From an uncultured Gammaproteobacteria bacterium (GTDB lineage Bacteria > Pseudomonadota > Gammaproteobacteria > JAURND01), in contig CAWCOU010000006.1 of assembly GCA_963797335.1 (NCBI GenBank), positions 1,148,413 to 1,212,412 on the forward strand: a DNA stretch of 64,000 nt. Direction: 5' to 3'. Positions 51,150 through 64,000 of the stretch are shown here, piece by piece. Under the pieces are notes generated by a model. The model worked only from the letters and a program-made list of their open reading frames with translations, searched no databases and had not been told where the DNA came from. Position 1 is the stretch's first letter. Every line of letters starts with the position of its first letter. A program made the translations under genes and the position numbers.

Positions 51150-51350
51150 TCACGATGCTGCAAATTTTATGATTATTTTAGCAAGATTTTATCTTAAAAA
51201 GAGCTACCATTTTGTTCTGAATTTTTGATTTGCTTTAAGATGGAAAATAAAACCAGCTTTCAAAATCCAGAACGTTTGTGTATAGACAAACTAATTCAAG
51301 GTATTTATTCTGTTTTCAATTATGAAATTCACTGCTACAAGGAGCCATTT

Positions 51351-51551: not shown

Positions 51552-51712
51552 CATTAGAATTTATCATTCTGATTTTTTAAGTAAGGGGCAATTTAAAATT
51601 TGAGCATAAATAAATTTAAACGGGAGTTTCATCGTTTATTTAAAGCTCATCATTAAAGCTTACAGAAATCTGTCCAGCCTTGAGGCATACATACAGGATA
51701 AACTGGTTGAAT

Positions 51713-52720
51713 CTATTTGCCAATTTCCAGGGATGTTAATCCTACTATTTTGTCTTTGTCTATTGCTGGAATTTCACCTTTATACATTCGCATAGTGTCA
51801 AATATCTTTTCTAGTTTAAAATGTTCTACCATCGCAGAAGCATACGGGCTAGTTTCTGAAATATCGATTGAAACAGTAGCATCTTTCCCTGCGAAGCTGC
51901 ATAAACTGCGGTAAAGTTGATCGGCTACTGTTTCGCTATTAGCAAATAGAGGGGCTATTTTATAATTATTTGGCTCCACAGTGCGGCTAATTACGCCATA
52001 ACCAATTATATTTCCTTCTCTATCTAAAGCAGCCAAAGCGTGTGAATCAGGCATTTTAAGCCAGTGCGTTAAGAAAGCTTCCCTAGGGGAAGAAAATATT
52101 TTTTTATCATATTCTACGATATCTTTTGTCAAAAACTTATCGGTTAGGATAAGACCTTCTTTCTTTATTCCTCTATCGCTTGGAATTTTATCTGGTTTTC
52201 CTTTCCAACGGGTGTTTAAAAAGCTGGGATAAAAACCTGATCTGCCATATCGTTCTATTTGCTCCATGACAGCGTTTAAGCCGATGCTAGAGCAAATCTC
52301 TAATTTAGAAGTTACTGCATCCCATAACATAGACCCAAATCCTTGTCCTCTTTTGCTTGGAGTAACGATGAAGAGACCTAAAAATGCTAATTTCTGAGAG
52401 TATTTTACAGCAGCCAATGATGCTGTAGGCTCTCCGTCTACTTCCAAGATATAATAGCCTTTAGGGTCTGCCGCATAGAGTGATTCTGTTTCGTGTTTCC
52501 CAGGATTCCAGCCTTCATCTTCTGCCCACTTAAAAACTAGCTGTAAATCTTTTGGAGTCATGTTGCGGATTGAGATATCTTGTTTCAGTATTAAAGGGGT
52601 ATAAGGTGGAATAACTTTGATCGATGATATTGAGCGCAGGTGCTTTGGTGCAGATAACAAATTCTGATAGGGTAGCTGTCCTAAGCGGGTAACATTTCTA
52701 AAAAAAAGTATTTTGTACAT
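51713..52720 (-). CDS. GNAT-family N-acetyltransferase (two-domain)
   Basis: TPSKRGQGFGSMLWDAV acetyl-CoA-binding motif. Confidence 0.7.
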   Translation of the reverse strand: MYKILFFRNVTRLGQLPYQNLLSAPKHLRSISSIKVIPPYTPLILKQDISIRNMTPKDLQLVFKWAEDEGWNPGKHETESLYAADPKGYYILEVDGEPTASLAAVKYSQKLAFLGLFIVTPSKRGQGFGSMLWDAVTSKLEICSSIGLNAVMEQIERYGRSGFYPSFLNTRWKGKPDKIPSDRGIKKEGLILTDKFLTKDIVEYDKKIFSSPREAFLTHWLKMPDSHALAALDREGNIIGYGVISRTVEPNNYKIAPLFANSETVADQLYRSLCSFAGKDATVSIDISETSPYASAMVEHFKLEKIFDTMRMYKGEIPAIDKDKIVGLTSLEIGK

Positions 52721-52926
52721 GATATCTTTCTCGTAATAATAACTCGCTAATTTATTATAATTATTATTTACCGTTTTATTATTAATCAGTTGAATTCCAA
52801 GTTGCCCAAAAACCTGACTATCTATTCTTAATCATTTCTTAAATCTGATACAATAGGTTCAAAAAAATAACAAAATAATAATTCGATTAATTTGGTGCAT
52901 GGTAGGATAAATAGGAGATAAAGTAA

Positions 52927-55005
52927 ATGTCGAATCAAAAACAACAGTATAAGCCTCGCAAAATACATCATCTTGTTGAAATTCAAGCAGCAGTAAGGCC
53001 GACAGAAACTGCAATTGTTTTTTTTAATGAAACGTTAAGCTATGGAGAATTAAATTCGAGAGCAAATCAGTTTGCAAAGTACCTGGTTCATCAAGGTGTC
53101 AAGCCTGGCGATATAGTACCGATCATATCCAATAAATCCCCTGCATTATTTGTAATGATATTGGGGATATTAAAATCAGGCGCTGCTTATTCCCCATTAA
53201 ATGTGGATAGCCCCATTAAACATATTGAAGCTGTTGTTAAAGAAACCCGAGCAAAATTTATATGTATAGAATCCAATTTGGCTAACCGATTTTCGCTTGA
53301 TGAGGATGTTTTGGTCATTGAAGCTGACGATTTACAGAAAAAAATTGGTTCTTATGGTGATGATGAAGTAGATGATGGTGCGCAAACAGAATCCGATTTA
53401 GCTTATGTTATTTATACTTCTGGAACAACCGGAAATCCTAAAGGAGGAATGATTGCCCATGCTAATTTATTGCCAACTTATCTTTCTTGGAAAAAATCTT
53501 ATCAATTAACCTCATCTGACATTCATCTCCAAATGGCTCCTGTAGGCTTTGATGTATTTGCCGGGGATTGGATTAGAGCATTATGTTCTGGAGCAAAGCT
53601 TGTCTTATGTCCAAAAAACATTTTAGTAGATTCACGGCAACTATATTTATTGATCCAAAAAGAGAAAATAAATTGTGCTGAGTTTGTTCCTGCTGTTTTA
53701 AGGCAATTAATTAACTTCGTTGAAAGAAATCAATATGATCTGGCTCAATTTCGCTTATTGGTGTGTGGCTCAGATCAATGGGTTATGGGTGAATATCGGG
53801 CGGTAAAAAAACTGTGTGGAAAGGAATCGCAAGTCATAAGCTCTTATGGGTTAACTGAAACGACTATCGATAGTAGTTTTTACGAAGAAGACTCAGAAGT
53901 TCCTCTTTTAGATGATAGGTCGCCTGTTCCTATTGGCAAGCCATTTAATCATGTTAATTTCTATTTGGCTGAAGATGAAAAATTAGTGCCTCGTGGAGAA
54001 ATAGGTGAAATTTATATCGGAGGCTCTGGCGTTGGTTTGGGATATTTAAACCAACCAAAATTAACCGCAGATAAATTTGTTTTGAGAACTTTTACAGGTG
54101 ACGTTGGTGAGAGATTATATAGAACTGGAGATCAAGGGAGATTGTTAGATGATGGAAATTTTTTATTTTTAGGCAGAAACCAGGAACACATAAAAATTCA
54201 TGGCAAAAGAGTTGATCTGCCTTCGTTGGAATCTGTGATTAATCAGTATAATAAAATAAAATTTAGTATAGTGACTCCAATATTTAAAGCTGATTCCGAT
54301 CAAGTTATTTTAAAATGCTTTTTTACGCTCAAAGATAGTTCTCTCACTTTTGAAGAGCTTGCTAATCATATTAGGAGAGAACTACCGTGCTACTATGTCC
54401 CCAGGGAATTTTATCAAGTTGAGTCAATACCTTTGTCTTTAAATGGTAAAATTGATAAACGCGTTTCAGCTCAGAAGGTTGTTAAAGAACTTCGACCACA
54501 GATTCATGCTCCTACGAACGAGCTGCAAAGGTACTTAGTTGATTTATGGAAGAAAAGACTGGAATTAGAGGAAGTGGGCACAAAGAGTAGTTTTCATAAT
54601 CTTGGCGGTTCCTCTCTCTTATTTGTAGCTATGCTCAGCGATGTTAATAAAAAATTCAATTTAAGTATATCATATACCATTGACGTTGAGACCATAGAGG
54701 ATTTGGCAAAACATATAGAAAATCAACAGCTCATTCCAGCTCAACGATTGCATAACCCTGCGTCAGCATTCGCTTTTAGAGATGCAAAACAGGCAAAATA
54801 TACCTCATCGTATTTTATGGGTATTTTTTCCCCTATATTGCTTCACCCCGCAAAAAAATCCCCCAAAATTCTTTCGTCAGAAGTTCCGAAGAGATCATTT
54901 GCGTACTCAATTTTTCAGCAACCTTTGCCAAAACAACCATTGTCCTCGAAATTAACCAAGGCTACTAAGACACTTCTATCCTTGGCATTTAGAAAAGGAA
55001 AGTAA
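52927..55005 (+). CDS. stand-alone NRPS-like adenylation-thiolation (A-T) didomain protein
   Basis: AMP-binding core YVIYTSGTTGNPKG. A10 GKIDKR. Carrier-protein motif FHNLGGSSLLFV. Confidence 0.8.
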   Translation: MSNQKQQYKPRKIHHLVEIQAAVRPTETAIVFFNETLSYGELNSRANQFAKYLVHQGVKPGDIVPIISNKSPALFVMILGILKSGAAYSPLNVDSPIKHIEAVVKETRAKFICIESNLANRFSLDEDVLVIEADDLQKKIGSYGDDEVDDGAQTESDLAYVIYTSGTTGNPKGGMIAHANLLPTYLSWKKSYQLTSSDIHLQMAPVGFDVFAGDWIRALCSGAKLVLCPKNILVDSRQLYLLIQKEKINCAEFVPAVLRQLINFVERNQYDLAQFRLLVCGSDQWVMGEYRAVKKLCGKESQVISSYGLTETTIDSSFYEEDSEVPLLDDRSPVPIGKPFNHVNFYLAEDEKLVPRGEIGEIYIGGSGVGLGYLNQPKLTADKFVLRTFTGDVGERLYRTGDQGRLLDDGNFLFLGRNQEHIKIHGKRVDLPSLESVINQYNKIKFSIVTPIFKADSDQVILKCFFTLKDSSLTFEELANHIRRELPCYYVPREFYQVESIPLSLNGKIDKRVSAQKVVKELRPQIHAPTNELQRYLVDLWKKRLELEEVGTKSSFHNLGGSSLLFVAMLSDVNKKFNLSISYTIDVETIEDLAKHIENQQLIPAQRLHNPASAFAFRDAKQAKYTSSYFMGIFSPILLHPAKKSPKILSSEVPKRSFAYSIFQQPLPKQPLSSKLTKATKTLLSLAFRKGK

Positions 55006-55146
55006 TATACTTATTGAATATTTTTACAGCAATTAACGAGGCTAGGGATTGCCATAAAATACCAATTGTTAATCATTTGCTGTTATTTTTAGCATTTTAA
55101 AGCCTGTCCGAGCAGAGCTTTTCTAAAGCACAATGGAGTTGTTTTA

Positions 55147-56844
55147 ATGCTATATGATGATTCAGAGTTGATTGAGCAAATTATTCTTAATCTACCCAAT
55201 TATGTCTTTTGGCAAGATAATCGCGGTATCTTTAAAGGTTGCAATCATAATTTTGCAACCCTTCTGAGCCTGGACTCCCCAAGTAAAATTATTGGCCTAA
55301 CAGAAGATACCTTACCTTTTGTGAAACACCTGACATCCCATGCCGAAGATTTACAATTTATAAGCTCTGGAAAACCCATTTTTGTTAAAAAAGTTGATCT
55401 CGACTTTCAAGGTGAGAGTCGGCATTTTTTAATTGAAAAGAAATTTGTTTTTGATAAAAACAAGCATATTAGTGGAATAATTGGTGTTATTAGTGATATT
55501 ACTTATCAAGAAAAATTGAGTGTTTCTCTGGAGCAGGCCGCTTCTATTCAAAAGTCCTATATTGCCGATATAAATAAAGAAGTTACCGGTCAAGAACATC
55601 GTGATATGTCCATTGAGGAGTATACGGATGAAATTAGGCATCATTTAGAAAATATTATAGCTGCTATGCCCGGGAACGTGTATTGGTTAAACAGAGAATG
55701 TACCCTCTTGGGTGGTAACGATAATTTAGCCAAGATGTTCGGATTAAAATCTCGTACCGAATTGGTGGGTTTAACCTACGATCAAATGGCTGAACTTGCT
55801 CAATGGACAGAAGGACAAGGAGAATCATTTAAAAATGCAGAGTTAGAAGTTATGGCATCGGGAATGCCTCGCTTTAACGTAGAAGAACCACCCGTGGTTA
55901 TAAACGATGAAACCAGATATTACATGTCCAATAAAGTCCCCCTGTATAATAAAAAAAATAAAATCATTGGTGTTTTAGGTATTTCTTTAGATATTACAGA
56001 TAGAAAGCTTGCAGAAGAACGAGAAAAAACCGCTCTTTTGGAATCATCCCAAGCTAGAGCAAAAGCTGAGTCAGAAGAGCAGCTAAGACAAGTGGTGATG
56101 ATCTTGACGGGTAGTATTGCTCATGATTTACGCTCACCTATTAGCGTTTTAGCAATGAAAGGTGGTTTCTTGGAAACATATCTTCCTATCCTAATAAGCG
56201 GATATGACAAAGCTGTGGCTTCTCAACTTACTACAGAAGATGATGAAAACATTCCCGATCGCATGAAAGATCATCTTGCAGTAATAGGACATAAAATATG
56301 CGAGACTACCAAAGAAATGCACGATTTTATTGATATCACCCTTCAAACTTTAAGCAAAGCATTAAGCAGTAATCTTACACGAGAAGACATGGTTGTTTGC
56401 TCCATGTGGCACTGTATCCATAATACTTTATATCGATATCCTTTTACTGGTCAGCAGCGGGAACTTATAAAATGGGATCAGAACGATTTCAATTTTATGG
56501 GAAATGAATTACTGATGATTAGGGTATTTTTTAATCTAATAAAAAATTCACTTGAGCAAATTGAAAAGAATAATCGTGGCGAAATTTCTATAAGCACTGA
56601 GGTTGGTGATAATGAAAATATCATACGGTTTAAAGACACTGCTGGCGGAGCGGCTCCCGAAATAATCAATAACTTATTTTCTGGTTATCGCACTACGAAA
56701 GAAAAAGGAACTGGGGTTGGTCTGGCTTTTTGTAAAATCACTATGGAAAGCTTTGGTGGAAGCATAAGTTGTAATTCCGTTTATGGGGAATATATTGAAT
56801 TTATTCTTAGTTTTCCGTCAATTAATCCAGAAAAAAATATGTAA
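55147..56844 (+). CDS. sensor histidine kinase, PAS-PAS-HisKA-HATPase_c, cytoplasmic
   Basis: Two PAS-like segments (NYVFWQDNRGIF...; NVYWLNRECTLL...). H-box IAHDLRSPI. G-box GTGVGLAFCK. Confidence 0.75.
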   Translation: MLYDDSELIEQIILNLPNYVFWQDNRGIFKGCNHNFATLLSLDSPSKIIGLTEDTLPFVKHLTSHAEDLQFISSGKPIFVKKVDLDFQGESRHFLIEKKFVFDKNKHISGIIGVISDITYQEKLSVSLEQAASIQKSYIADINKEVTGQEHRDMSIEEYTDEIRHHLENIIAAMPGNVYWLNRECTLLGGNDNLAKMFGLKSRTELVGLTYDQMAELAQWTEGQGESFKNAELEVMASGMPRFNVEEPPVVINDETRYYMSNKVPLYNKKNKIIGVLGISLDITDRKLAEEREKTALLESSQARAKAESEEQLRQVVMILTGSIAHDLRSPISVLAMKGGFLETYLPILISGYDKAVASQLTTEDDENIPDRMKDHLAVIGHKICETTKEMHDFIDITLQTLSKALSSNLTREDMVVCSMWHCIHNTLYRYPFTGQQRELIKWDQNDFNFMGNELLMIRVFFNLIKNSLEQIEKNNRGEISISTEVGDNENIIRFKDTAGGAAPEIINNLFSGYRTTKEKGTGVGLAFCKITMESFGGSISCNSVYGEYIEFILSFPSINPEKNM

Positions 56845-56916
56845 GACAATTACATCGCATTGAAATTTTTTAGTAATTATCAAATCAACTACTGTCTAAT
56901 AGTATTAATTATATTT

Positions 56917-57123
56917 TCAATAACTCTGTATAGTTGGAATTTCTTCAGGATGCGCGCAACTTTGCTTTCCGTATAATATCACATAATACATATGAGTGAT
57001 AGACAAAAGCTTTGCTCCAATAAACAGCTTCCTGTAAAAAAGAAAAGCAAACTGTTCTCTTGATGCTTGTCGATGGATACATCTGATCAGTTTTCCCGAG
57101 TGTTCACCTTGCATTAAAGCCAA
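56917..57123 (-). pseudogene. degenerate fragment homologous to the 50554..51036 protein
   Basis: MQGEHSGKLIRCIHRQAS vs LRGEHPEKLIRRIGRKRN. Truncated, abutting the IS. Confidence 0.4.
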
Positions 57124-57237
57124 TCAATAACTAACAGGAATGATTGTTGGATTTTTTTAAAGTAAAGAATGGTATTCAACTTGGTTACGCATACCTTTAA
57201 ACATAAATATTAATTATTTATTGCTATTGTTTTTAAA

Positions 57238-58485
57238 CTCTGTAGGGTACGAAAATTGAAGAAAGAGAGGAATTAAGGGAGAGAAAAAGATAACTCGCTG
57301 ATTTTAAACAAAAACCATATAATCATTTTCGACGAAGAAAAGGAGGTTATATGGATAAAAATAAAACCAGCGAGTTAGTAGGCATTTTAGGGCAAGAATT
57401 AAAATGGAACAAGGCAAGATTAACTTGTTTTAGTCTAATGATATTAGCGCTATTAGCGGCCAGAACAATCAGTCTGTTCAAAATGGCTGTGGTGATGGAT
57501 AGTCCGGCAGAGCAATCATCGCGCTATAAACGATTAAAATGCTTTTTCCGAGAGTTTAGTATTGATACGACGACGATAGCGCGTTTGATATTTAAATGGT
57601 TTGGATTTACTGAGAAAAAGTTATATTTGACGATAGATAGGACAAATTGGTTTTTAGGTAAGTCAAAGATAAATGTATTTACTCTGGGAGTAGCGTACGA
57701 AGGAATAGCAATCCCATTATTTTGGAAATTACTACCGAAAGCGGGTAACGCTTCAGCTAAAGAGCATATGGATTTAGTAGAACGTTTCGTTTCTGTGTTT
57801 GGAAGTGAATGTATTTTAGGTATTTTGGGTGATAGAGAATTTGCCAGCAAAGCCTTTTTCAAATGGTTAAATAAGAAAAAAATTGCTTTTTATATTCGCA
57901 TCAAAGAAGGCAGTCAAGTCAATATCAAAGGGAAAAAGTGGATAAAAGCCAAAAAAATTTTCAATCATTTAAATCTTAAAGAAAAGTCGATGTATATGAT
58001 GAAAATTACTCTTTGGGATGACACTTCTGTGTTTTTAGCAGGCTCTCGTTCAGAACGCGGAGAATTGATGATAGTAGCTACCAACCAAAATCCTAAAAAT
58101 GCTATTGCCATCTATCTGAGACGCTGGGAAATTGAATCATTGTTTCAAAATTTAAAGGGACGAGGTTTTAATTTTGAGCAAACCCATATCACTGCCCTGG
58201 ATCGCTTAGAGAAAGTCATGGTCTTGCTCGCATTGACTTTGTGTTGGGCCCATAAAGTGGGCGAATGGCGAGCCATACAAAAACCTATTCCCATCAATCG
58301 TTACCGCGATAGTCAAAGACCACAATTTAGTTATTTTCGATATGGTTTGGATTTGTTACAAGAGCTTGTTTTTAAAGGGTATCAACAAACCAAAAAACAA
58401 TGGAAAGCCTGCTTAAAACTAATAACTTCTAGCTCAATATTCACTCATACGCTGGAGGTGCTATGAATTTTCGTACCCTACAGAG
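57238..58485 (+). mobile_element. intact IS4-family insertion sequence, 1248 bp, 20-bp perfect terminal inverted repeats, 9-bp target duplication GTTTTTAAA
   Basis: IRL CTCTGTAGGGTACGAAAATT (57238..57257). IRR AATTTTCGTACCCTACAGAG (58466..58485). Direct repeats at 57229..57237 and 58486..58494. Confidence 0.8.
57351..58466 (+). CDS. IS4-family DDE transposase
   Basis: 371 aa. YLRRWEIESLFQNLK motif. The stop overlaps IRR. Confidence 0.8.
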   Translation: MDKNKTSELVGILGQELKWNKARLTCFSLMILALLAARTISLFKMAVVMDSPAEQSSRYKRLKCFFREFSIDTTTIARLIFKWFGFTEKKLYLTIDRTNWFLGKSKINVFTLGVAYEGIAIPLFWKLLPKAGNASAKEHMDLVERFVSVFGSECILGILGDREFASKAFFKWLNKKKIAFYIRIKEGSQVNIKGKKWIKAKKIFNHLNLKEKSMYMMKITLWDDTSVFLAGSRSERGELMIVATNQNPKNAIAIYLRRWEIESLFQNLKGRGFNFEQTHITALDRLEKVMVLLALTLCWAHKVGEWRAIQKPIPINRYRDSQRPQFSYFRYGLDLLQELVFKGYQQTKKQWKACLKLITSSSIFTHTLEVL

Positions 58486-58816
58486 GTTTTTAAAAAAATT
58501 AATCTTTATTTTAAGCTAGCCTTAAGAATAGCAAGAAAAAATAATTCCTCGTTTTCCATTTATTTTTGTGGAAATATGGTTTAAAATACAAATAAACAAA
58601 CATTCAATCGCTCTTAAAATGCTAATCATTCTCAATAATGGTTATTATTTCCCTCAAACAGTTTTCAGGATGCAACTGTTGTATCTGAAGTGATCGCAGA
58701 AATCATTATTTCACATAATAACAATATCAAATGTCATCATGACCACAATGGATAAAAATCATGATTGAAATAGGGTATTTCTATTTTTAAAAATTAAAAA
58801 AATAAGGATTATACGT

Positions 58817-59617
58817 ATGCACAACCCAAAAAATATTGTGGAATTATATTCTGGTGAAGATTTACCAGTTTTATTTAAAGGTGGATTTATTAATTTTGGT
58901 TATTGGGATGATTCAATTGCTCAAGAAAATAAAATCACATATGACCAAGTTATTAACGCAAATAAAGCTCTATATCAAAAACTTGTTGACTTAATTTCTA
59001 TCGGAAAGACAGATCGTGTGTTAGAGGTTGGTTCAGGCTTCGGAGCTGGTTGTGCATTGATATCGAAACTGTACACACCAAATTCTATAACTGGCATTGA
59101 TTATTTTAACTCGCATGTGGAACATGCCACCAAACTTCATCAGGAATTAGTATCCCAAAAAAGAATATCTTTTCTTCAAGGTAAAGCGGAAAGCTTACCT
59201 ATCCCGGATCAATCCATAGATAAGCTTGTGACTTTGGAAGCTTTTCAACATTTTGACCCTGTAAAAGCCATTCGAGAATTCGGACGAATTTTAGTAGACA
59301 AAGGAGTTTTAGGTATATCCACATTTTTTGCGCTAAAAAAGGAATTTTTCAAAGAAATATTACAACTTCTTCCTAGACCTGCTGTTTTGTCAGATGAATC
59401 TGATGAAAAAAATTCTGCCTTACCCGAAGTAATAGAAGCTCTTAAAGTATCAGGGTTTCATGATGTAGAGGTAGTGCCAATTGGCGATCATGTTTGGTAC
59501 GGTTATGATAAGTGGGTTAAGCAAAATGAACCGGGCATTTGGGATACCAATTGGCTTCCTGCATATCAAAAAGGATTGCTAGATTATTTTATTATTAGAG
59601 CTGTTAGAAAAAGATAG
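58817..59617 (+). CDS. class I SAM-dependent methyltransferase
   Basis: Motif I VLEVGSGFGAGCALIS. Confidence 0.7.
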   Translation: MHNPKNIVELYSGEDLPVLFKGGFINFGYWDDSIAQENKITYDQVINANKALYQKLVDLISIGKTDRVLEVGSGFGAGCALISKLYTPNSITGIDYFNSHVEHATKLHQELVSQKRISFLQGKAESLPIPDQSIDKLVTLEAFQHFDPVKAIREFGRILVDKGVLGISTFFALKKEFFKEILQLLPRPAVLSDESDEKNSALPEVIEALKVSGFHDVEVVPIGDHVWYGYDKWVKQNEPGIWDTNWLPAYQKGLLDYFIIRAVRKR

Positions 59618-59653
59618 CCTATTTGGAGTTATTATTTTAGGTAGATGATATAA

Positions 59654-60661
59654 ATGTCCGATAAAGATCCTAGCGTTAAAAAAACAAAAGATTACAAAGA
59701 ATTACTACAAAAAATTGTTGTACATAGAAATGAAAAAATTGCGCCGTTGACAAGCACTATGGATAGACCAGGTATTGCTGAAAATATTTCTTTCACTCTT
59801 GAGCTTAGAAATGGAACCCAACTGCCTGTGGAAGTTTTTCGTCCGATCAATAGCACTTTGGAATTTTATCCAACTATTTTCCATATCCCAGGATCTGGGT
59901 TTAACACTTTAAATCCGTACTTTGCTTTTGTTACTTGTAGCCAGCTTGCAGAACATTCAGGCTGTCAGGTTATTGTCATTAATCATCGACTTGTTCCAGA
60001 GCATCCATTTCCCGCAGGGCAGGATGACAGCATGGAGGTATTTTGCACTTTAATGGACAATTCTATATTTTTAAAAATTGATCTTTGCAAAGTGGCTCTT
60101 TCTGGATACAGTTCTGGCGGGACTTATGCAGCTTGGGTGGCAAATCAAGAGGGTGATTGTTCACAAAGTGGACATTTAAGCAATATTAAGCATCTATTCT
60201 TGATTAGTCCTTTGGTGGATCTATCCGGTCTGATGCCGCGTATAGCGCAGGAGTCAGAGATTCAAGACCATATAGTTAGCCAACACTTTATTGAAGGAAT
60301 GAAGGAGTACTATCTGCATGGCATATCAAATCTATCTGATTCCAAGCTTTCACCGTATCTCCAAGAAATTAAAGAAAATCACCCTCCTACTCACTTTACC
60401 CGAGGTCATCACGATCGATTGGCATCTGATACAGAAGCTTATAAAAATAAGCTTAAAGCGAAAACTATGGTTTCCTCAACTAATATTCAGGGATGTCATG
60501 ATGTTTTTTGGCATAAGAAGGAAGCTATACTGGATGTTGCCGGCATGGCAAGACAAACTATAGGGGTGGTTATACCTAGATCAGTGGGTACGGCACCACA
60601 AGAAAAAGATGAGGTATTGGACAAAAGCAATAATGATACTAGTCTTGCGTCAAAAATATAA
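59654..60661 (+). CDS. alpha/beta-hydrolase fold-3 esterase/lipase
   Basis: HIPGSGF (HGGG-type oxyanion motif). GYSSGG (GxSxG). Confidence 0.7.
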   Translation: MSDKDPSVKKTKDYKELLQKIVVHRNEKIAPLTSTMDRPGIAENISFTLELRNGTQLPVEVFRPINSTLEFYPTIFHIPGSGFNTLNPYFAFVTCSQLAEHSGCQVIVINHRLVPEHPFPAGQDDSMEVFCTLMDNSIFLKIDLCKVALSGYSSGGTYAAWVANQEGDCSQSGHLSNIKHLFLISPLVDLSGLMPRIAQESEIQDHIVSQHFIEGMKEYYLHGISNLSDSKLSPYLQEIKENHPPTHFTRGHHDRLASDTEAYKNKLKAKTMVSSTNIQGCHDVFWHKKEAILDVAGMARQTIGVVIPRSVGTAPQEKDEVLDKSNNDTSLASKI

Positions 60662-60672
60662 ATAAAAGGCAA

Positions 60673-61068
60673 ATGATGACACATTATTATTTAAATGAGA
60701 TGATAAACAAGGCGGCTCAAGCACTGGACTTTTGTTACGTTCCCGTGTCTAATTTTCGAGTGAGTGCTTGCATTCTAACAGAACACAATCGAATATTTGT
60801 TGGATGTAATTTTGAGAATGCCAGTTTCCCACTAAGTGTGTGCGCTGAAACCTCCGCTATTGCCAATATGATAAGCTCAGGATCAAGAAGCATACGTGCC
60901 ATACTTATTATGAATAATGAAGCAGAGTTATGCTCTCCATGCGGTGGGTGTAGGCAGCAAATTTTTGAATTTTCACAAAAGGACACTTTAATTCATTTAT
61001 ATGGGAACGGTCAATTAAAAAAAACTTTAACTATTGAAGAATTATTACCCTGCCCGTTTCATTTATAG
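60673..61068 (+). CDS. cytidine/deoxycytidylate deaminase-family zinc enzyme
   Basis: CAETSAI...PCGGCRQ (CAE / PCxxC zinc ligands). Confidence 0.75.
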   Translation: MMTHYYLNEMINKAAQALDFCYVPVSNFRVSACILTEHNRIFVGCNFENASFPLSVCAETSAIANMISSGSRSIRAILIMNNEAELCSPCGGCRQQIFEFSQKDTLIHLYGNGQLKKTLTIEELLPCPFHL

Positions 61069-61102
61069 ATGAATTTAAAACTTATATGGAATTGGATACC
61101 TT

Positions 61103-62305
61103 ATGGCAATTACTAATGATGAGCTCCATAATGAGCTTGAAAGATTAAAACACATTATTGAGCAACAAGAGCTAGAAATAGTTAGATTGAAAAGTGTTAT
61201 TGATAACCTTCCCGGGAGTATCTATTGGAAGGATATAGATGGAAAATATTTAGGAAATAATAAATTTGCTCGCGATAAAATGGTTGGTTTAGATTTGGCC
61301 GAGTCTGTCATTGGAAAAACAGATTACGACTTATTTGCTAAAGAAGTTGCCGAAGAGTTTAGAAAAAATGATTTAGAAGTCATTGATAATAATAGTGAAA
61401 TATCACGAGAAGAGACTACCACTCTTTCTGATGGTAGAGAAATTTTTCAATTGTCAAGGAAAAGGCCGCTACATGACACCAATGGTAAAGTTATTGGAAT
61501 TGTTGGCAATACAGTTGATATTACCGAATTAAAAACAACGCAAGACAAATTACGAAATGTTGAAGATAGACTGGCCGGTATGTTATCACTCAGTGCTTCA
61601 ATTGCTCATGAATTGCGCACTCCCATTACAGCCATTCAATTTGGTGTTAGCGGCGTAAAAGAGTACCTTCCCTCCCTTGTAAAAGCATATAACACAGCTA
61701 AAAAACATCAACTCAAAGTAGACAATATCCAGAGTCAGCATCTCAAAATTCTTTCAGGCGTCTTTGATACTCTTGAGTCTGAAGTGATATATGCAGATAC
61801 TATTATCAATATGATATTGATGAATCTTAAGCATACCGATATTCCAGATGTAAATTTAAAAATACTCTCCATAAGTTCTTGCGTTGAAGAAGCCATACGA
61901 CGTTATCCATTTAAAAAAGAACAACGTGATCTTATTGAATGGTCAAGTGAGGGTGATTTTTCGTTTATGGGTGAGCAACTGCTTATGGTACATGTGTTGT
62001 TTAACTTAATGAAAAATTCTTTTTACTATATAGAAGCAGAGAACAAGGGGAAAATTCAAATATGGTTTGATTCAGATGAGTATGATAACATTCTTTACTT
62101 TAAAGATACTGCAAAAGGTATCCTAGAGGATGTGTTACCGAAATTATTTGAAAAATTTTATTCGACTACTCGACATGGTACTGGCTTAGGACTTTCGTAT
62201 TGCAAAATGATTATGACCAGTTTTGGCGGCACGATAACTTGTCAATCAACTTACGGAGAATTCACACAATTTACATTAACTTTCCCGAAAATAGAAAATA
62301 ATTAA
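61103..62305 (+). CDS. sensor histidine kinase PAS-HisKA-HATPase_c, paralog of 55147..56844
   Basis: PAS NIPGSIYWKDIDGKYLGNN. H-box IAHELRTPI. G-box GTGLGLSYCK. Confidence 0.75.
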   Translation: MAITNDELHNELERLKHIIEQQELEIVRLKSVIDNLPGSIYWKDIDGKYLGNNKFARDKMVGLDLAESVIGKTDYDLFAKEVAEEFRKNDLEVIDNNSEISREETTTLSDGREIFQLSRKRPLHDTNGKVIGIVGNTVDITELKTTQDKLRNVEDRLAGMLSLSASIAHELRTPITAIQFGVSGVKEYLPSLVKAYNTAKKHQLKVDNIQSQHLKILSGVFDTLESEVIYADTIINMILMNLKHTDIPDVNLKILSISSCVEEAIRRYPFKKEQRDLIEWSSEGDFSFMGEQLLMVHVLFNLMKNSFYYIEAENKGKIQIWFDSDEYDNILYFKDTAKGILEDVLPKLFEKFYSTTRHGTGLGLSYCKMIMTSFGGTITCQSTYGEFTQFTLTFPKIENN

Positions 62306-62363
62306 TTGCAAATTATTCTATTTTTGTAATAAAAAATCGGACTTCGTGGGGAAGAAAATCAGA

Positions 62364-63155
62364 ATGCCAATATTAAATATCAATAACGCTGAAATTTATT
62401 ATGAATTACAAGGTTCCGGTCAACCTCTAGTGCTTATATCAGGCATTATGGGCGATCATACCGTTTGGGAACCGATACTGGATGAATTGGTAAAAGATTA
62501 TCAAGTACTCATTTTTGATAATCGGGGAGTTGGACAAACAAGGGATGATGGTGAAGATTTCACAGTCGAAACTATGGCCGATGATGTTTTCGCAATCTGC
62601 GAAACTTTAAACTTTAAGCATCCCCATATTGTAGGTAGCTCCTTTGGCGGCATGATTGCCCAAATGCTAGCAAAAAAACATGGAAAATATATAAAAACAC
62701 TAACTTTATCCAATACATTTCCCAGAGTAAGCTCATCTTCAAGCATCTTATTTTCTTATATTTCTAAACTCCATGAATTATGTGATCCGCCGAGCAGCAT
62801 CTATAATGCCGTCATACCTTGGGGCTTCTCTGATGAATTTCTCACGCCCGAAGTTATTGATTCTATAAGAAGATTAAGTGACACTCACCCCTATCCACAA
62901 TCCAAAGAAGACTATACCCGCCAACTTAATGCTATGAGTGCTTTTGATTCCAGCGATTGGGTAAGTTCCATTTCAATACCTACATTAGTATTGGGTTCAG
63001 AACAAGATAGAATTGCTCCACCGGAGGAATCTATAAGACTTGCTAAGCTAATTCCAAGAGCAGAATTGAGTATTTTGCCAGGTGGGCATGTATCTCAAAT
63101 GGAGCATCAATCATTTTTTGTGGAATTATTGAAAAAATTCCATAAAATCATGTGA
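62364..63155 (+). CDS. alpha/beta hydrolase (lactonase/esterase-like)
   Basis: HIVGSSFGGMIA nucleophile elbow. Catalytic His near the C-terminus. The track GTG start 62346 is also possible. Confidence 0.7.
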   Translation: MPILNINNAEIYYELQGSGQPLVLISGIMGDHTVWEPILDELVKDYQVLIFDNRGVGQTRDDGEDFTVETMADDVFAICETLNFKHPHIVGSSFGGMIAQMLAKKHGKYIKTLTLSNTFPRVSSSSSILFSYISKLHELCDPPSSIYNAVIPWGFSDEFLTPEVIDSIRRLSDTHPYPQSKEDYTRQLNAMSAFDSSDWVSSISIPTLVLGSEQDRIAPPEESIRLAKLIPRAELSILPGGHVSQMEHQSFFVELLKKFHKIM

Positions 63156-63269
63156 TTGCATGAATAACTCGACGAATCACCCTCGGATAAAGTATAATTT
63201 TGCTAACATTTACCTATTTCAGATAAATTAAAATTTATCTTCCTCAACTTAGATTAACGGAGAGTGGAC

Positions 63270-64000
63270 ATGGATGAATACGAAATATCCTGCATTTATT
63301 ACCCAACTACGGTTGTTGTAGTCGATGATAATGAATCCGTCTTGGAAAATATCTTACTTAAAGTTGGTAAGAATATTCCTTGTAAGATATTTTCCGATCC
63401 CAAAGAAGGATTGGCCTATATTAAAAAAACACTCAAAAAAGCAGACATTCTGTCAGATATTATAGGAGTTAATGAAAGCTCTGTGGATTACAGCCACGAA
63501 TCAAATCGTTTCCCAATTCAGTATGATCTTAAAAAAATCTTCCAACATGCGTCTGATAAACAGCGATTTCAACAAATATCAGTGCTTGTCATTGATTATG
63601 CTATGCCCGGCATGAATGGTGAAGAGCTTTGTAGAGCTTTAAAAAGAGCAAAGGGAAACCCAGTGAAGATTATTATGCTAACTGGTGAAATTGATGAACC
63701 AATGGCTGTTAGATTGTTTAATGAGGGACTGATTGATAGATTTTTAAGAAAAGCTCGACCTGGAGTAGACGAAGAATTAAAAAACTGCATTATTGAAATG
63801 CAACGCCGTTATTTTCAAGATTTAACCTATCCAATTATTCGAGGCATTATTTCAGATAAAGATTCCGCTTTAGGCGACCCAGCTTTTAGAGAATTTTTTA
63901 ATAAAATTTGCCAACAAGTTTCAGCTTCCAGTTATTATCTTATAGAAACTTCCGGTAGTTTTATCTTTTTTAACAATGCTGGCAAACCCAAATGGCTGCT
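63270..64000 (+). CDS. response regulator (N-terminal REC domain), 3' end beyond window
   Basis: VVVVDDNESV...VLVIDYAMPGMNGEEL...IIMLTGE. RBS ggagag. Confidence 0.65.
   Translation, partial: MDEYEISCIYYPTTVVVVDDNESVLENILLKVGKNIPCKIFSDPKEGLAYIKKTLKKADILSDIIGVNESSVDYSHESNRFPIQYDLKKIFQHASDKQRFQQISVLVIDYAMPGMNGEELCRALKRAKGNPVKIIMLTGEIDEPMAVRLFNEGLIDRFLRKARPGVDEELKNCIIEMQRRYFQDLTYPIIRGIISDKDSALGDPAFREFFNKICQQVSASSYYLIETSGSFIFFNNAGKPKWL

What the first reader, a model, noticed from the sequence alone, without database searches (positions are those of the whole stretch)
51713..64000. Cargo cluster pairing small-molecule enzymes (GNAT, NRPS-like A-T, methyltransferase, esterase, cytidine deaminase, hydrolases) with two paralogous cytoplasmic PAS histidine kinases and a response regulator
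The two PAS-HisKA-HATPase kinases (565 and 400 aa) share PAS and H-box sequence. Each follows a set of tailoring or activation enzymes. The first set is a divergent GNAT and a stand-alone adenylation-carrier didomain. The second set is a SAM methyltransferase, a fold-3 esterase and a deaminase. A REC-domain regulator follows. This looks like a self-contained signal-production-and-sensing or modified-metabolite system carried as ICE cargo. The A-T didomain without condensation partner suggests aminoacyl or acyl transfer onto a small acceptor, and the GNAT is a possible acceptor-modifying enzyme.
Basis: inference. Interest (0 to 1): 0.6.

Follow-up and report, generated by a model that had tools for sequence, protein, structure and literature searches.

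The report
Two enzyme-plus-sensor-kinase cassettes, side by side
The region holds two separately conserved gene cassettes in Legionella-like bacteria, each pairing small-molecule enzymes with its own cytoplasmic sensor kinase; they look like uncharacterised chemical-signal or metabolite-sensing circuits that probably feed a quorum-sensing-type (LqsR-family) regulator.

Summary
The two PAS kinases are true paralogues (32% identity, E 2e-68).

The region is two independent cassettes, not one system.

**Cassette A** is a tandem GNAT, a diamino-acid-type A-T didomain and the kinase HK1.
- It recurs in about 20 Legionellales-like loci on chromosomes, plasmids and mobile elements, with variable gene order.
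- In sister cassettes a flavin monooxygenase replaces the GNAT.
- HK1's second PAS domain is 61-89% identical wherever the GNAT is present, against 40-47% for the enzymes in the more distant loci. It is only 28-34% identical in monooxygenase-type cassettes.
- The two cassette types interleave on the A-domain tree.

**Cassette B** is methyltransferase, esterase, cytidine deaminase, HK2 and an LqsR-like regulator. It is collinear in three other contigs. One 91%-identical relative lacks cassette A and the IS4 entirely.

The best reading is that each cassette makes or modifies a small molecule that its own PAS kinase senses. Both kinases carry the transmitter type that is genetically paired with LqsR-family regulators. 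The chemistry and the signalling role are inferred, not shown.

The parts
51713..52720 (-). Cassette A: tandem GNAT acyltransferase (335 aa), transcribed divergently from the A-T gene
   Evidence: Pfam Acetyltransf_1 (39.9 bits) plus Acetyltransf_18 (86.2 bits). The AlphaFold2 model has pLDDT 89.8. Foldseek against PDB gives tandem GNATs: 3ddd (TM 0.83), the clavulanate-pathway tandem GNAT 2wpw, MAB_4324, Eis and VipF. The acyl-CoA motif R124-G-Q-G-F-G129 is conserved; R124 and G129 are invariant in 44 sequences. Homologues sit next to A-domain homologues in 13 loci.
52927..55005 (+). Cassette A: stand-alone NRPS-type adenylation-thiolation didomain (692 aa) with a roughly 90-aa C-terminal tail. 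Its specificity code DVGELCSIDK is of the diamino-acid type.
   Evidence: TIGR01733 at 331.9 bits against a cut-off of 317.4; PP-binding at 32.7 bits. There is no C, TE or R domain. All ten code residues are invariant in 14 homologues at 44-100% identity and occur in both GNAT- and FMO-type cassettes. Published codes are DVGEISSIDK for Dab, with Glu4 and Asp9 essential (PMC12042044), and DVGEIGSIDK for Orn (PMC3992020).
55147..56844 (+). Cassette A: HK1, a soluble double-PAS histidine kinase. PAS-A is about aa 1-135, PAS-B about aa 161-292 (nt 55627-56022), and the transmitter about aa 300-565.
   Evidence: PAS, PAS_4 and HATPase_c. The H-box is SIAHDLRSP, and the N, G1 and G2 boxes can be read in the translation. 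PAS-B is 61-75% identical in the ten GNAT-type loci and 88.6% in L096, against 28-34% in FMO-type loci. DNA homology to other cassettes stops at about 56017-56019, the end of PAS-B. The transmitter is of the HK2/L092 type: 37% to the L092 kinase and 69% to P0188.
51560..57120 (.). Approximate extent of cassette A as an insertion/deletion relative to contig L093
   Evidence: L093 1-779 aligns to window 50824-51533. L093 820-926 aligns to window 57122-57237. L093 927-3760 aligns to window 58487-61315 at 91%. No boundary repeat of 10 nt or more was found.
57238..58485 (+). IS4-family insertion sequence (transposase ORF 57351-58466), a simple insertion between the cassettes
   Evidence: NF033591 at 225.5 bits against a cut-off of 152. 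The exact 20-nt terminal inverted repeats at 57238-57257 and 58466-58485 are the only two copies in the window. A 9-bp direct repeat GTTTTTAAA lies at 57229-57237 and 58486-58494 (read). L093 lacks the element.
58817..59617 (+). Cassette B: class I SAM-dependent methyltransferase (266 aa)
   Evidence: Methyltransf_11/25/31. The best curated matches are weak and are lipid or carboxyl O-methyltransferases (phthiotriol MT, BioC, fatty-acid O-MT Mtf2, E about 1e-14, far below the cut-offs). The best PDB matches are RebM (3bus) and MitM, E about 1e-11 to 1e-12. Orthologues are 91%, 66% and 60% identical in L093, L091 and L094.
59654..60661 (+). Cassette B: family IV (hormone-sensitive-lipase type) carboxylesterase (335 aa)
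   Evidence: Abhydrolase_3 E 1.4e-27. A GYSSG nucleophile motif can be read in the translation. PDB esterases EH1AB1 and LAE6 match at E 1e-22 to 1e-23. It is collinear in L091, L093 and L094.
60673..61068 (+). Cassette B: homotetramer-type cytidine deaminase (131 aa)
   Evidence: TIGR01354 at 134.9 bits against a cut-off of 113.65, and PRK05578 at 129.7 against 74. The CAE and PCGGC zinc motifs are present in the translation. It is collinear in L091 (70%), L093 (93%) and L094 (52%).
61103..62305 (+). Cassette B: HK2, a soluble single-PAS histidine kinase (400 aa)
   Evidence: PAS_4, HisKA and HATPase_c. Its orthologue is 69% identical in L091, directly upstream of an LqsR-like regulator. Its kinase core is 45-63% identical to the cores of kinases about 430-450 aa long; the three inspected (P0159, P0192, P0218) have multi-TM N-termini. 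One of these (P0218) is followed by an LqsR-like regulator. The best curated model is the kinase core of LuxN, far below its cut-off.
62346..63155 (+). Alpha/beta-fold hydrolase (269 aa), an extra gene between HK2 and the regulator
   Evidence: Abhydrolase_1 E 8e-33. The nearest curated model is the 3-oxoadipate enol-lactonase PcaD, at 132.8 bits against a cut-off of 255.9, so it is below the cut-off. The gene is absent from the orthologous operon in L091, where HK and RR are adjacent.
63270..64000 (+). Cassette B: LqsR-family response regulator. The first 243 aa are in the window; the rest is cut off by the window end.
   Evidence: PDB 6sy9 (L. pneumophila LqsR) matches at E 5.7e-40 over residues 2-236, extending beyond the receiver core. 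Asp109 in VLVIDYAMPG aligns to the LqsR phospho-acceptor position. It is 62% identical to the 338-aa regulator after the HK2 orthologue in L091 and 45% identical to the regulator after the membrane kinase in L092.

Best explanation
The 12-kb region holds two independent 'enzymes plus dedicated cytoplasmic sensor kinase' cassettes. They lie next to each other on a conjugative element with an IS4 insertion between them.

**Cassette A: tandem GNAT | A-T - HK1**
- The A domain activates a basic diamino acid of the Dab/Orn type. This is inferred from the specificity code.
- The amino acid is loaded on the protein's own carrier domain where one is present.
- The tandem GNAT retains an acyl-CoA-binding motif and probably N-acylates this amino acid or a derivative of it (inferred).
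- In sister cassettes a flavin monooxygenase of the lysine/ornithine N-hydroxylase type takes the GNAT's place. That points to modification of an amine on the same substrate.
- HK1's second PAS domain (PAS-B) is the cassette-specific sensor and most likely binds the cassette's product or an intermediate in the cytoplasm (inferred).

**Cassette B: MT - esterase - cytidine deaminase - HK2 - (hydrolase) - LqsR-like regulator**
- This is a separately conserved operon. A small molecule is methylated, de-esterified or deaminated, and a PAS kinase with an LqsR-family partner controls or reports on it.
- The chemistry is unknown.

**Convergence**
- HK1 and HK2 both carry the transmitter type found in kinases that are genetically paired with LqsR-family regulators.
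- On this element both kinases therefore plausibly feed the one LqsR-like regulator, as LqsS and LqsT both feed LqsR in L. pneumophila (inferred).

**Shown versus inferred**
- Shown: gene content, paralogy, independent conservation of each cassette, the indel and IS structure, the PAS/tailoring-enzyme co-variation, and LqsR-family membership.
- Inferred: substrate, product, ligand, phosphotransfer partners, and whether the molecule acts between cells.
For: **Independence of the cassettes**
- No A-T locus carries the MT, esterase, deaminase or hydrolase.
- Contig L093 joins window ~51533 to ~57122 and continues at 91% identity into MT-EST-CDA-HK2. It lacks cassette A and the IS4.
- The IS4 is a simple insertion with a 9-bp target duplication.

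**Cassette A is a conserved unit**
- An HK1-like PAS kinase lies within a few kb of the A(-T) gene in about 20 Legionellales-like loci. The contexts are chromosomal (L004, L087, L096), plasmid (L003, with RepA/ParA) and mobile element (L001, with a relaxase).
- Gene order and orientation vary, but the trio persists.
- None of the 64 other A-domain loci (ordinary NRPSs) has any of the partner genes searched for: GNAT, FMO, the HK1 PAS domains or core, or the regulator.

**Coupling of sensor and tailoring enzyme**
- PAS-B is 61-75% identical in the ten GNAT-type loci (88.6% in L096). In the seven most distant of these the A domain is 40-44% and the GNAT 37-48% identical, and the rest of the kinase is 35% or less, or undetectable.
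- PAS-B is only 28-34% identical in the seven FMO-type loci.
- The best PAS-B identity among 120 non-cassette kinases is 48%.
- On the A-domain NJ tree the two types interleave. The window clade groups with FMO-type L004 at bootstrap 100, and FMO-type L009 groups with GNAT-type L050/L031 at 89. Monophyly of the GNAT type appeared in 0 of 100 replicates.
- The same chromosomal site beside tkt-gap-pgk-pyk holds an FMO-type cassette in L004 and a GNAT-type cassette in L096.

**Substrate**
- The code DVGELCSIDK is invariant across both types.
- It matches the published Dab and Orn codes at 8 of 10 positions, including the essential Glu4 and Asp9.
- Several fused A-T-FMO homologues carry the lysine/ornithine N-monooxygenase family PF13434.

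**Cassette B is a conserved unit**
- L091 has MT 66%, EST 58%, CDA 70%, HK 69% and RR 62% identity, is collinear, and lies between folC-cvpA-purF and ctpA-iPGM.
- L093 is 91-93% identical and L094 52-60% identical, the latter with a convergent kinase.

**LqsR link**
- The regulator matches PDB 6sy9 at E 5.7e-40.
- The HK2 core is 49% and the HK1 core 37% identical to a membrane kinase (L092) that is followed by an LqsR-like regulator.
- LqsR-family regulators are known partners of the Lqs and Phc quorum-sensing systems (PMC8023197, PMC10653808).
Against: - No product, ligand or phosphotransfer has been measured.
- PAS domains sense many cues, including O2, redox state and light. High PAS-B conservation proves constraint, not ligand identity.
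- The co-variation could partly reflect co-inheritance of neighbouring genes. The A-domain tree is a neighbour-joining tree on 27 sequences.
- About half of the GNAT-type cassettes have an A protein with no carrier domain, and no carrier gene was detected nearby. Thioester tethering is therefore not obligatory.
- In L096 the A-T gene is reduced to residues 381-581 while the GNAT and HK are intact.
- No regulator is consistently adjacent to cassette A. An LqsR-like gene is adjacent only in L002 and lies 8 kb away in L. drozanskii. Close relatives L001 and L003 use a different, hybrid REC/Hpt transmitter.
- Cassette B contains a deaminase that meets the curated definition of an ordinary cytidine deaminase, so it may simply be salvage metabolism.
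- The methyltransferase domain fused to PAS kinases elsewhere (P0140) is only 24% identical to this methyltransferase.
- Promoter and terminator scans gave no more sites than shuffled sequence.
Confidence: 0.5

Rival explanations
1. Regulation only. The kinases are ordinary two-component sensors that switch on adjacent metabolic or detoxification operons in response to a substrate or an unrelated cue such as oxygen, redox state or a host metabolite. No signal molecule is made for communication. Cassette A is a small biosynthetic or salvage pathway, and cassette B is a nucleoside or ester catabolic operon.
For: - Two-component systems encoded next to the operons they control are common (established knowledge).
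- The deaminase meets the curated cytidine deaminase thresholds.
- The L091 copy of cassette B sits among housekeeping genes, including folC, cvpA and purF.
- PAS domains are generic sensors.
- No secretion or export gene lies in either cassette.
Against: - It does not by itself explain why PAS-B is far more conserved than the enzymes and the rest of the kinase. It also does not explain why PAS-B switches type together with the tailoring enzyme while the A-domain code stays the same.
- Substrate sensing would predict the same PAS type in both variants, because the A-domain code is identical.
- The regulator belongs to a family so far characterised in quorum-sensing circuits.
Confidence: 0.3
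2. Cassette A and its FMO-type sisters make a small metal-binding compound, such as a hydroxamate or N-acyl diamino-acid chelator. The PAS kinase monitors iron or redox state, or the loaded chelator.
For: - The A-domain code is of the diamino-acid type.
- Sister cassettes carry monooxygenases, some with the lysine/ornithine N-hydroxylase family PF13434.
- N-hydroxylation followed by N-acylation of Orn or Lys is the classic route to hydroxamates (established knowledge).
Against: - The GNAT and FMO are alternatives rather than partners. Only the mixed locus L049 shows both, and its GNAT is a fragment.
- No TonB-dependent receptor, exporter or Fur-type context appears in the annotated loci.
- The Pfam families found here are not the IucB-type family.
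Confidence: 0.1
3. One reading: all ten genes form one self-contained production-and-sensing system carried as a unit.
For: - The genes lie next to each other and all but the GNAT are on the same strand.
- The kinases are paralogous.
- Both transmitters are of the LqsR-partnered type.
- There is only one regulator gene in the region.
Against: - The two halves never co-occur elsewhere.
- L093 has cassette B without cassette A at the same site.
- L096, L087 and L003 have cassette A without cassette B.
- An IS4 and a gap of nearly 2 kb separate the two halves.
Confidence: 0.06
4. Chance accumulation of unrelated cargo genes, with no functional link even within each half.
For: - Cargo regions of conjugative elements are mosaics (established knowledge).
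- An IS element and an indel are present here.
Against: - The GNAT, A domain and PAS-B kinase recur in 13 independent loci despite rearrangement.
- Cassette B is collinear in three further contigs at 51-93% identity.
- Intergenic gaps within cassette B are short: 12-41 bp, and 114 bp before the regulator.
Confidence: 0.03

Closest known systems
Lqs system of Legionella pneumophila (LqsA synthase, LqsS/LqsT sensor kinases, LqsR regulator) and the related Cqs system of Vibrio
   Same: - The regulator is clearly LqsR-family (PDB 6sy9, E 5.7e-40).
- An enzyme gene set, a sensor kinase and the regulator are encoded together.
- Two paralogous kinases may converge on one LqsR-type regulator.
- The HK2 and HK1 transmitters are 49% and 37% identical to that of a multi-TM kinase encoded next to an LqsR-like gene.
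   Different: - No LqsA-type PLP-dependent synthase is present.
- The sensors are soluble PAS domains rather than a membrane receptor with six TM helices.
- The enzymes are an NRPS-like A-T with a GNAT, or a methyltransferase, esterase and deaminase, so any signal would be chemically unrelated to alpha-hydroxyketones.
- I could not compare directly with LqsS or LqsT sequences.
Phc quorum sensing of Ralstonia (PhcB methyltransferase makes a fatty-acid methyl ester; PhcS/PhcR sense it; the LqsR-family regulator PhcX is encoded next to phcBSRQ)
   Same: Cassette B combines a SAM methyltransferase, a histidine kinase and an LqsR-family regulator. An esterase could hydrolyse a methyl ester. The link between Phc and LqsR-family regulators is published (PMC10653808).
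   Different: - Orthology of the methyltransferase to PhcB was not tested.
- Its best matches are natural-product and lipid O-methyltransferases at E 1e-12 to 1e-14.
- The kinase is soluble.
- The cytidine deaminase has no counterpart in Phc.
Stand-alone NRPS A-T didomains with trans-acting tailoring enzymes, and GNAT-fold enzymes that act on carrier-bound substrates (for example Drosophila Ebony, whose C-terminal amine-selecting domain has a GNAT-like fold)
   Same: The A-T has no C, TE or R domain and is strictly linked to a GNAT-fold protein. GNAT-fold enzymes are known to catalyse condensation (Izore et al. 2019, as cited in PMC8072286).
   Different: - Here the GNAT is a separate tandem-GNAT protein with an intact acyl-CoA motif. 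That favours acyl-CoA-dependent N-acylation over aminoacyl transfer.
- Half of the cassettes lack the carrier domain.
- A dedicated sensor kinase is part of the unit.
Diamino-acid-activating NRPS modules (polymyxin Dab modules, gramicidin S and tetramate-macrolactam Orn modules)
   Same: The specificity code DVGELCSIDK shares 8 of 10 positions with DVGEISSIDK (Dab) and DVGEIGSIDK (Orn), including Glu4 and Asp9. One cassette homologue (L013) has exactly the Dab code.
   Different: The domain is not embedded in a multimodular assembly line. Positions 5 and 6 (Leu, Cys) differ from both published codes. Activity has not been tested.

Membership tests
NRPS amino-acid adenylation domain | Match to the curated model TIGR01733 above its cut-off, and core motifs A3, A5, A7, A8 and A10 | tested here: met
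   331.9 bits against a cut-off of 317.4. YTSGTTGNPKG, SYGLTE, YRTGD, GRNQEHIKIHGKRV and NGKIDK are present and conserved.
NRPS carrier (thiolation) domain | PP-binding domain with the GGxS phosphopantetheine-attachment serine | tested here: met
   PF00550 at 32.7 bits against a cut-off of 20.8. LGGSSL has G560, G561 and S563 invariant. Modification by a PPTase was not tested.
Complete NRPS module or assembly line | Condensation domain and a release domain (TE or R) in the protein or its neighbours | tested here: not met
   No C, TE or R family was found in any of the 10 ORFs. Close homologues are A-T or A only.
Diamino-acid-specific A domains (binding mode with Glu at code position 4 and Asp at position 9) | Ten-residue specificity code resembling the Dab and Orn codes | tested here: met
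   DVGELCSIDK, obtained by motif-anchored alignment. The same mapping reproduces the published code DVGEISSIDK in homologue L013. Reference codes come from PMC12042044 and PMC3992020. Substrate activation itself cannot be tested with these tools.
GNAT superfamily (tandem GNAT) | GNAT fold present twice, with the acyl-CoA pyrophosphate-binding motif Q/R-x-x-G-x-G/A | tested here: met
   Two Pfam GNAT families score above their cut-offs. The AF2 model (pLDDT 89.8) matches tandem GNAT structures at E 1e-13 to 8e-19. R124-G-Q-G-F-G129 is conserved.
Ebony-type GNAT-fold condensation enzyme | Transfer of a carrier-bound aminoacyl group to an amine acceptor | not testable with these tools
   The GNAT-A linkage is compatible with this. 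The retained acyl-CoA motif and the cassettes without a carrier domain argue against an obligatory carrier-dependent mechanism.
Sensor histidine kinase (both HK1 and HK2) | H-box histidine, with the N, G1 and G2 boxes of the HATPase_c domain | tested here: met
   HATPase_c scores 55.9 and 69.4 bits against a cut-off of 26.4. SIAHDLRSP and SIAHELRTP, NLIKNS and NLMKNS, and GTGVGL and GTGLGL can be read in the translations and align between the two proteins.
LqsS/LqsT (CqsS-type) autoinducer sensor kinases | N-terminal multi-pass membrane receptor domain | tested here: not met
   No hydrophobic segment reaches TM grade in HK1 or HK2, whereas relatives with the same core (P0159, P0218) have four N-terminal segments. 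Only the transmitter type is shared. Direct comparison with LqsS or LqsT was not possible.
LqsR-family response regulator | Receiver domain with an N-terminal insertion and the LqsR-specific C-terminal extension; phospho-acceptor Asp | tested here: met
   PDB 6sy9 matches at E 5.7e-40 over residues 2-236, the best PDB match by more than 30 orders of magnitude. VIDYAMPGM aligns with the Asp. The last ~95 residues lie outside the window. The L091 orthologue is 338 aa.
Lqs quorum-sensing cluster (lqsA-lqsR-hdeD-lqsS) | LqsA-type PLP-dependent autoinducer synthase and hdeD next to lqsR | tested here: not met
   None of the ORFs in 51.7-64 kb matches an aminotransferase or HdeD family.
Phc-type methyl-ester quorum sensing | PhcB-orthologous methyltransferase and a PhcS/PhcR sensor cascade | not tested
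The Ralstonia matches to the HK2 core lie on the megaplasmid, are 32% identical and are unannotated.
Cytidine deaminase (homotetrameric type) | Curated equivalog model above its cut-off; CAE and PCxxC zinc ligands | tested here: met
   TIGR01354 at 134.9 bits against 113.65, and PRK05578 at 129.7 against 74. The motifs VCAETSA and PCGGC are present.
IS4-family insertion sequence | DDE transposase of the IS4 family, terminal inverted repeats and a target-site duplication | tested here: met
   NF033591 at 225.5 bits against 152. It has 20-nt exact inverted repeats and a 9-bp duplication GTTTTTAAA. The site is empty in L093.
Cargo of an integrative conjugative element | Location between the attachment sites of an element that has an integrase, a relaxase and a type IV secretion system | tested here: inconclusive
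   An integrase (9624-10844), TraI_2, TraC, TraD-like and TraG_N are in the window. No tRNA or att site was found, and the right end of the element lies beyond the window.
Quorum-sensing system (functional definition) | A self-produced extracellular signal accumulates with cell density and is detected by the cognate sensor | not testable with these tools
   Only genomic association is available.

The most novel reading that the evidence does not exclude
Cassette A and its relatives are a previously unrecognised family of autoinducer circuits in Legionellales built on NRPS-like chemistry. The A domain activates Dab or Orn. The side-chain amine can close on the activated carboxyl to give an amino-lactam, which would explain why neither a release domain nor, in half the cassettes, a carrier domain is needed. 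The tandem GNAT then N-acylates the ring with an acyl-CoA. The product would be a membrane-permeant N-acyl-amino-lactam, an isostere of acyl-homoserine lactones. In the FMO variant the product would be a cyclic hydroxamate. The cognate cytoplasmic PAS-B domain reads this molecule and, on this element, passes the signal through an Lqs-type transmitter to an LqsR-family regulator. A conjugative element could thereby plug a new signal into the host's Lqs network.
Probability: 0.15. Interest if true: 0.85.

Novelty: new variant of a known kind. Interest (0 to 1): 0.62.

Why it matters
Legionella and its relatives are known to use one autoinducer system, Lqs. Many species keep LqsR and LqsS/T-type receptors without the synthase.

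This region shows LqsR-family regulators and Lqs-type kinase transmitters combined with soluble PAS sensors and with entirely different enzyme sets. One of these sets is an NRPS-like diamino-acid-activating cassette found on chromosomes, plasmids and conjugative elements.

If the enzymes make the ligands, these would be new signal chemistries and a route by which mobile elements rewire host density or virulence regulation.

The swap between GNAT-type and monooxygenase-type cassettes, each with a matching PAS type, offers a natural experiment for pairing sensor domains with ligands. The predictions are directly testable with a three-gene heterologous construct.

Tried and rejected
- **Exact-protein look-ups.** Look-ups of the window's own A-T protein failed. 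Cluster look-ups gave no organism names. The source organism therefore stays unidentified beyond 'Legionellales-like'.
- **Species-representative genome scan.** It found no close copy; the best was 54% in a MAG and 45% in L. drozanskii. 64 of its 80 hits were ordinary NRPS modules with the same specificity code, useful only as negative controls.
- **Plasmid searches.** No DNA match was found. Protein matches were ordinary NRPSs, 29%-identical kinases on L. pneumophila plasmids and Ralstonia megaplasmid kinases. None clarified function.
- **Promoter and terminator scan.** Counts equalled those in shuffled sequence, so it was uninformative.
- **Rfam scan.** No riboswitch or sRNA was found.
- **Repeats at the cassette A indel boundaries.** None of 10 nt or more was found, so no transposition or integration mechanism can be named.
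- **Methyltransferase-PAS-kinase fusions (P0140, P0145).** I considered these as a Rosetta-stone link for cassette B. I rejected them as strong evidence because the fused methyltransferase is only 24% identical to the window's.
- **PAS-A as the specific sensor of the FMO variant.** I rejected this. Identities of 32-39% are barely above those to non-cassette kinases at 31-35%.
- **Sequence search of the GNAT against PDB.** It gave only a marginal hit. The fold search was needed and shows the fold class, not the substrate.
- **Literature searches.** Searches for a described A-T/GNAT/PAS-kinase system in Legionella found nothing.

Full report
**Observation**

- A 335-aa GNAT lies on the minus strand at 51713-52720.
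- A 692-aa adenylation-thiolation protein lies at 52927-55005. It scores 331.9 bits on TIGR01733 against a cut-off of 317.4 and has a PP-binding domain. It has no C, TE or R domain.
- A 565-aa double-PAS kinase, HK1, lies at 55147-56844.
- A class I methyltransferase lies at 58817-59617.
- An Abhydrolase_3 esterase lies at 59654-60661.
- A cytidine deaminase that passes the curated equivalog thresholds lies at 60673-61068.
- A 400-aa PAS kinase, HK2, lies at 61103-62305.
- An alpha/beta hydrolase lies at 62346-63155.
- A receiver-domain protein starts at 63270 and runs off the window.

HK1 and HK2 are paralogues: 32% identity over 398 residues, E 2e-68. Neither has a membrane-grade hydrophobic segment, whereas relatives with the same kinase core have four.

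1. An intact IS4-family element sits between the two gene sets at 57238-58485. It has exact 20-nt inverted repeats and a 9-bp target duplication GTTTTTAAA.
2. The receiver protein is an LqsR-family regulator. It matches PDB 6sy9 at E 5.7e-40 over residues 2-236, and its Asp109 is in register with the phospho-acceptor.
3. The GNAT is a tandem GNAT with a conserved acyl-CoA motif. The AlphaFold2 model has pLDDT 89.8 and matches tandem-GNAT structures.

The wider window carries an integrase, ParA, TraC, a TraD-like protein, TraG_N and TraI_2. The conjugative-element setting is therefore real, although its right boundary lies outside the window.

**The region is two units, not one**

I fetched about 90 loci around homologues and searched them with every protein of the region. 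None of the loci that carry an A-T homologue contains the methyltransferase, esterase, deaminase or hydrolase.

The clearest evidence is a 3.8-kb metagenome contig, L093.
- Its first 779 bases match window 50824-51533.
- Its next stretch matches 57122-57237.
- It then continues at 91% identity from 58487 through the methyltransferase, esterase, deaminase and the start of HK2.

That relative therefore lacks the roughly 5.6 kb holding the GNAT, A-T and HK1, and also lacks the IS4. No boundary repeats explain the indel. The IS4 is a separate simple insertion.

**Cassette B**

The order methyltransferase-esterase-deaminase-PAS kinase-LqsR-like regulator is collinear in L091, with 66, 58, 70, 69 and 62% amino-acid identity. 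There it lies between folC-SPOR-cvpA-purF and ctpA-iPGM, which is a chromosomal housekeeping context.
- L093 has the same order at 91-93% identity.
- L094 has the three enzymes at 52-60% identity with a convergent kinase.
- The hydrolase at 62346-63155 is absent from L091, so it is an addition.
- Gaps within the operon are 12-41 bp, and 114 bp before the regulator.

By synteny the regulator is HK2's partner.

The chemistry is unclear.
- The methyltransferase is nearest to natural-product and lipid O-methyltransferases, at E 1e-12 to 1e-14.
- The esterase is a family IV carboxylesterase.
- The deaminase looks like an ordinary cytidine deaminase.

**Cassette A**

An HK1-like PAS kinase lies beside the A(-T) gene in about 20 Legionellales-like loci. 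They are on chromosomes (L004, L087, L096), on a plasmid with RepA/ParA (L003) and next to a relaxase (L001).

The tandem GNAT accompanies the A(-T) gene in 12 loci besides the window. Gene order and orientation vary. 17 of 49 database homologues of the GNAT share a longest-contig length with one of the 120 listed A-T hits, which I take to mean the same contig.

In a second group of loci a flavin monooxygenase replaces the GNAT. It is either a neighbouring gene (L. drozanskii, L004) or fused as A-T-FMO (L089). Several of these carry the lysine/ornithine N-monooxygenase family.

None of the 64 other loci from the genome scan, which are ordinary NRPS modules, has any of the partner genes searched for: GNAT, FMO, the HK1 PAS domains or core, or the regulator.

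**Substrate**

I anchored on the A4, A5 and A10 motifs. The specificity code is then D209 V210 G213 E252 L278 C280 S306 I314 D315 K508, which reads DVGELCSIDK.
- All ten residues are invariant in 14 homologues at 44-100% identity.
- The code is essentially constant across both cassette types.
- The same mapping returns exactly DVGEISSIDK in homologue L013. That is the published 2,4-diaminobutyrate code of the polymyxin synthetase, in which Glu4 and Asp9 are essential (PMC12042044).
- DVGEIGSIDK is the ornithine signature (PMC3992020).

A basic diamino acid is therefore the likely substrate. This is inference.

**Sensor-enzyme coupling**

This is the most informative result. HK1's second PAS domain, PAS-B (aa 161-292), is 61-75% identical in the ten GNAT-type loci, and 88.6% identical in L096.
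- In the seven most distant of those ten loci the A domain is only 40-44% and the GNAT 37-48% identical.
- The rest of the kinase is 35% or less, or not detectable.
- In the seven monooxygenase-type loci PAS-B identity is 28-34%.
- Among 120 kinases found with HK2 the best is 48%.

The two cassette types are not two clades of the A domain.
- The window clade groups with the monooxygenase-type L004 at bootstrap 100.
- The monooxygenase-type L009 groups with the GNAT-type L050/L031 at bootstrap 89.
- GNAT-type monophyly appeared in 0 of 100 replicates.
- The same chromosomal site next to tkt-gap-pgk-pyk holds a monooxygenase-type cassette in L004 and a GNAT-type cassette in L096.

The PAS type thus follows the tailoring enzyme while the amino-acid code stays fixed. 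That is what one expects if the PAS domain reads the tailored product rather than the substrate. Co-inheritance of neighbouring genes and the crude tree are caveats.

**Transmitter and regulator**

DNA and protein similarity between HK1 and the kinases of the closest cassettes (L001, L003) stops just after PAS-B. The DNA stops at about 56017-56019, and the protein at aa 333-339, just past the H-box. Those relatives continue with a hybrid HisKA-HATPase-REC(-Hpt) transmitter.

HK1's transmitter instead belongs to HK2's family.
- It is 69% identical to P0188.
- It is 37% identical to the membrane kinase of L092, which is followed by an LqsR-like regulator that is 45% identical to the window's regulator.
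- HK2's core is 49% identical to the same L092 kinase.

A full-length HK1 orthologue with this transmitter (74% identity) exists in L096, so the chimera is not unique to this element.

LqsR-family regulators are known from the Lqs system, where they are fed by two paralogous kinases. They are also known as PhcX, encoded next to the methyltransferase-based Phc system (PMC8023197, PMC10653808). It is therefore reasonable, but unproven, that HK1 and HK2 converge on the regulator at 63270.

**Mechanism proposed**

Cassette A activates a Dab/Orn-type amino acid. The GNAT N-acylates it or its derivative using an acyl-CoA, and in sister cassettes a monooxygenase oxidises an amine instead. PAS-B senses the resulting small molecule in the cytoplasm.

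Cassette B modifies a second, unknown molecule under the control of HK2 and the LqsR-like regulator.

Several findings weaken details of this model.
- About half of the GNAT-type cassettes lack any carrier domain.
- The A-T gene is truncated in L096.
- No regulator is consistently linked to cassette A.
- There are no export genes.
- The deaminase may be plain salvage metabolism.

The main rival is that the kinases merely regulate adjacent metabolic operons. That remains substantial. A metallophore reading is possible but less likely, because the GNAT and the monooxygenase are alternatives rather than partners.

**Comparison and novelty**

The parts are members of known families: NRPS A-T, tandem GNAT, PAS histidine kinases, LqsR-family regulator, cytidine deaminase and IS4.

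The system is not an Lqs cluster, because it has no LqsA or HdeD and no membrane sensor. A Phc relationship could not be tested.

I found no description of an A-T/GNAT (or monooxygenase)/PAS-kinase cassette in Legionella literature searches. I rate it a new variant of a known kind, namely synthase-sensor-regulator circuits. The interest is moderate to high because the comparative pattern yields sharp, cheap experiments. The signalling role itself is not shown.

Noticed in passing
window 54727-55005 (A-T residues ~601-692): The A-T protein ends in a tail of about 90 aa after the carrier domain. The tail has a conserved FSP motif and a basic-hydrophobic terminus, K-x-LLSL-x-F-(R/K)(R/K)GK. It is present only in the closest homologues (685-700 aa) and absent from the ~600-aa A-T proteins. 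No family match; function unknown.
   Followed up: partly
L027, L028, L031, L049, L050, L080: In about half of the GNAT-type cassettes the adenylation protein (~520 aa) has no carrier domain. No carrier-domain sequence was detectable anywhere in the 10-kb flanks.
   Followed up: partly
L096 9105-9830 (JGI contig, 491 kb): In a chromosomal copy of cassette A, the GNAT (75%) and a full-length HK1 orthologue (74%) are intact, but the A-T gene is reduced to residues ~381-581. It may be a decaying locus or an assembly artefact.
   Followed up: partly
L004 and L096: The same chromosomal neighbourhood downstream of tkt-gap-pgk-pyk holds a monooxygenase-type cassette in one genome and a GNAT-type cassette in another.
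   Followed up: partly
P0140, P0145 (homologues of HK2): These ~635-aa proteins fuse an N-terminal class I methyltransferase domain to a PAS kinase that is 48-51% identical to HK2. The fused methyltransferase is only 24% identical to the window's methyltransferase.
   Followed up: partly
L092 (ENA contig, 134,858 bp): A multi-TM kinase with an HK2-type core is followed by an LqsR-like regulator. It is flanked by a divergent FAD-dependent oxidoreductase (DAO) and a convergent methyltransferase, and lies next to KfrA, CsrA and LexA-like genes. This is another 'enzymes plus Lqs-type kinase plus LqsR-type regulator' arrangement, apparently on a mobile element.
   Followed up: partly
L089/L090 8665-9447: Upstream of a fused A-T-monooxygenase gene lies a one-component PAS-GerE (LuxR-type HTH) regulator. 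Its PAS domain is 42% identical to PAS-B, and it sits next to a stand-alone receiver.
   Followed up: no
window 62346-63155: The alpha/beta hydrolase lies between HK2 and the regulator. Its nearest curated model is 3-oxoadipate enol-lactonase, below the cut-off. The gene is absent from the orthologous operon in L091, so it was inserted into the kinase-regulator pair.
   Followed up: partly
window 51115-51149: A perfect 16-bp GC-rich hairpin (GGGTACCCTGACGGGC...GCCCGTCAGGGTACCC) followed by T-rich sequence lies downstream of the 160-aa ORF. The same palindrome occurs in L093.
   Followed up: no
window 12844-13869 (-): This 341-aa protein fuses an N-terminal HTH_19/HTH_3 DNA-binding domain to a class I methyltransferase domain. 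It lies in the left part of the element, between the integrase at 9624-10844 and the transfer genes.
   Followed up: no
window 44952-47096, 49593-50540 (-), 50554-51036 (-), 51225-51551: Several sizeable ORFs of the element backbone, including one of 714 aa, have no Pfam match. The DNA at 50824-51533 is conserved (72-83%) in L093.
   Followed up: no
L. pneumophila plasmids NZ_CP015948, CP015952, CP015943, CP021276, CP021278: A PAS kinase 29% identical to HK2 over 94% of its length is encoded on 71-77-kb L. pneumophila plasmids and is annotated there as 'response regulator'. The HK2 core also matches unannotated ORFs on Ralstonia megaplasmids at 32%.
   Followed up: no
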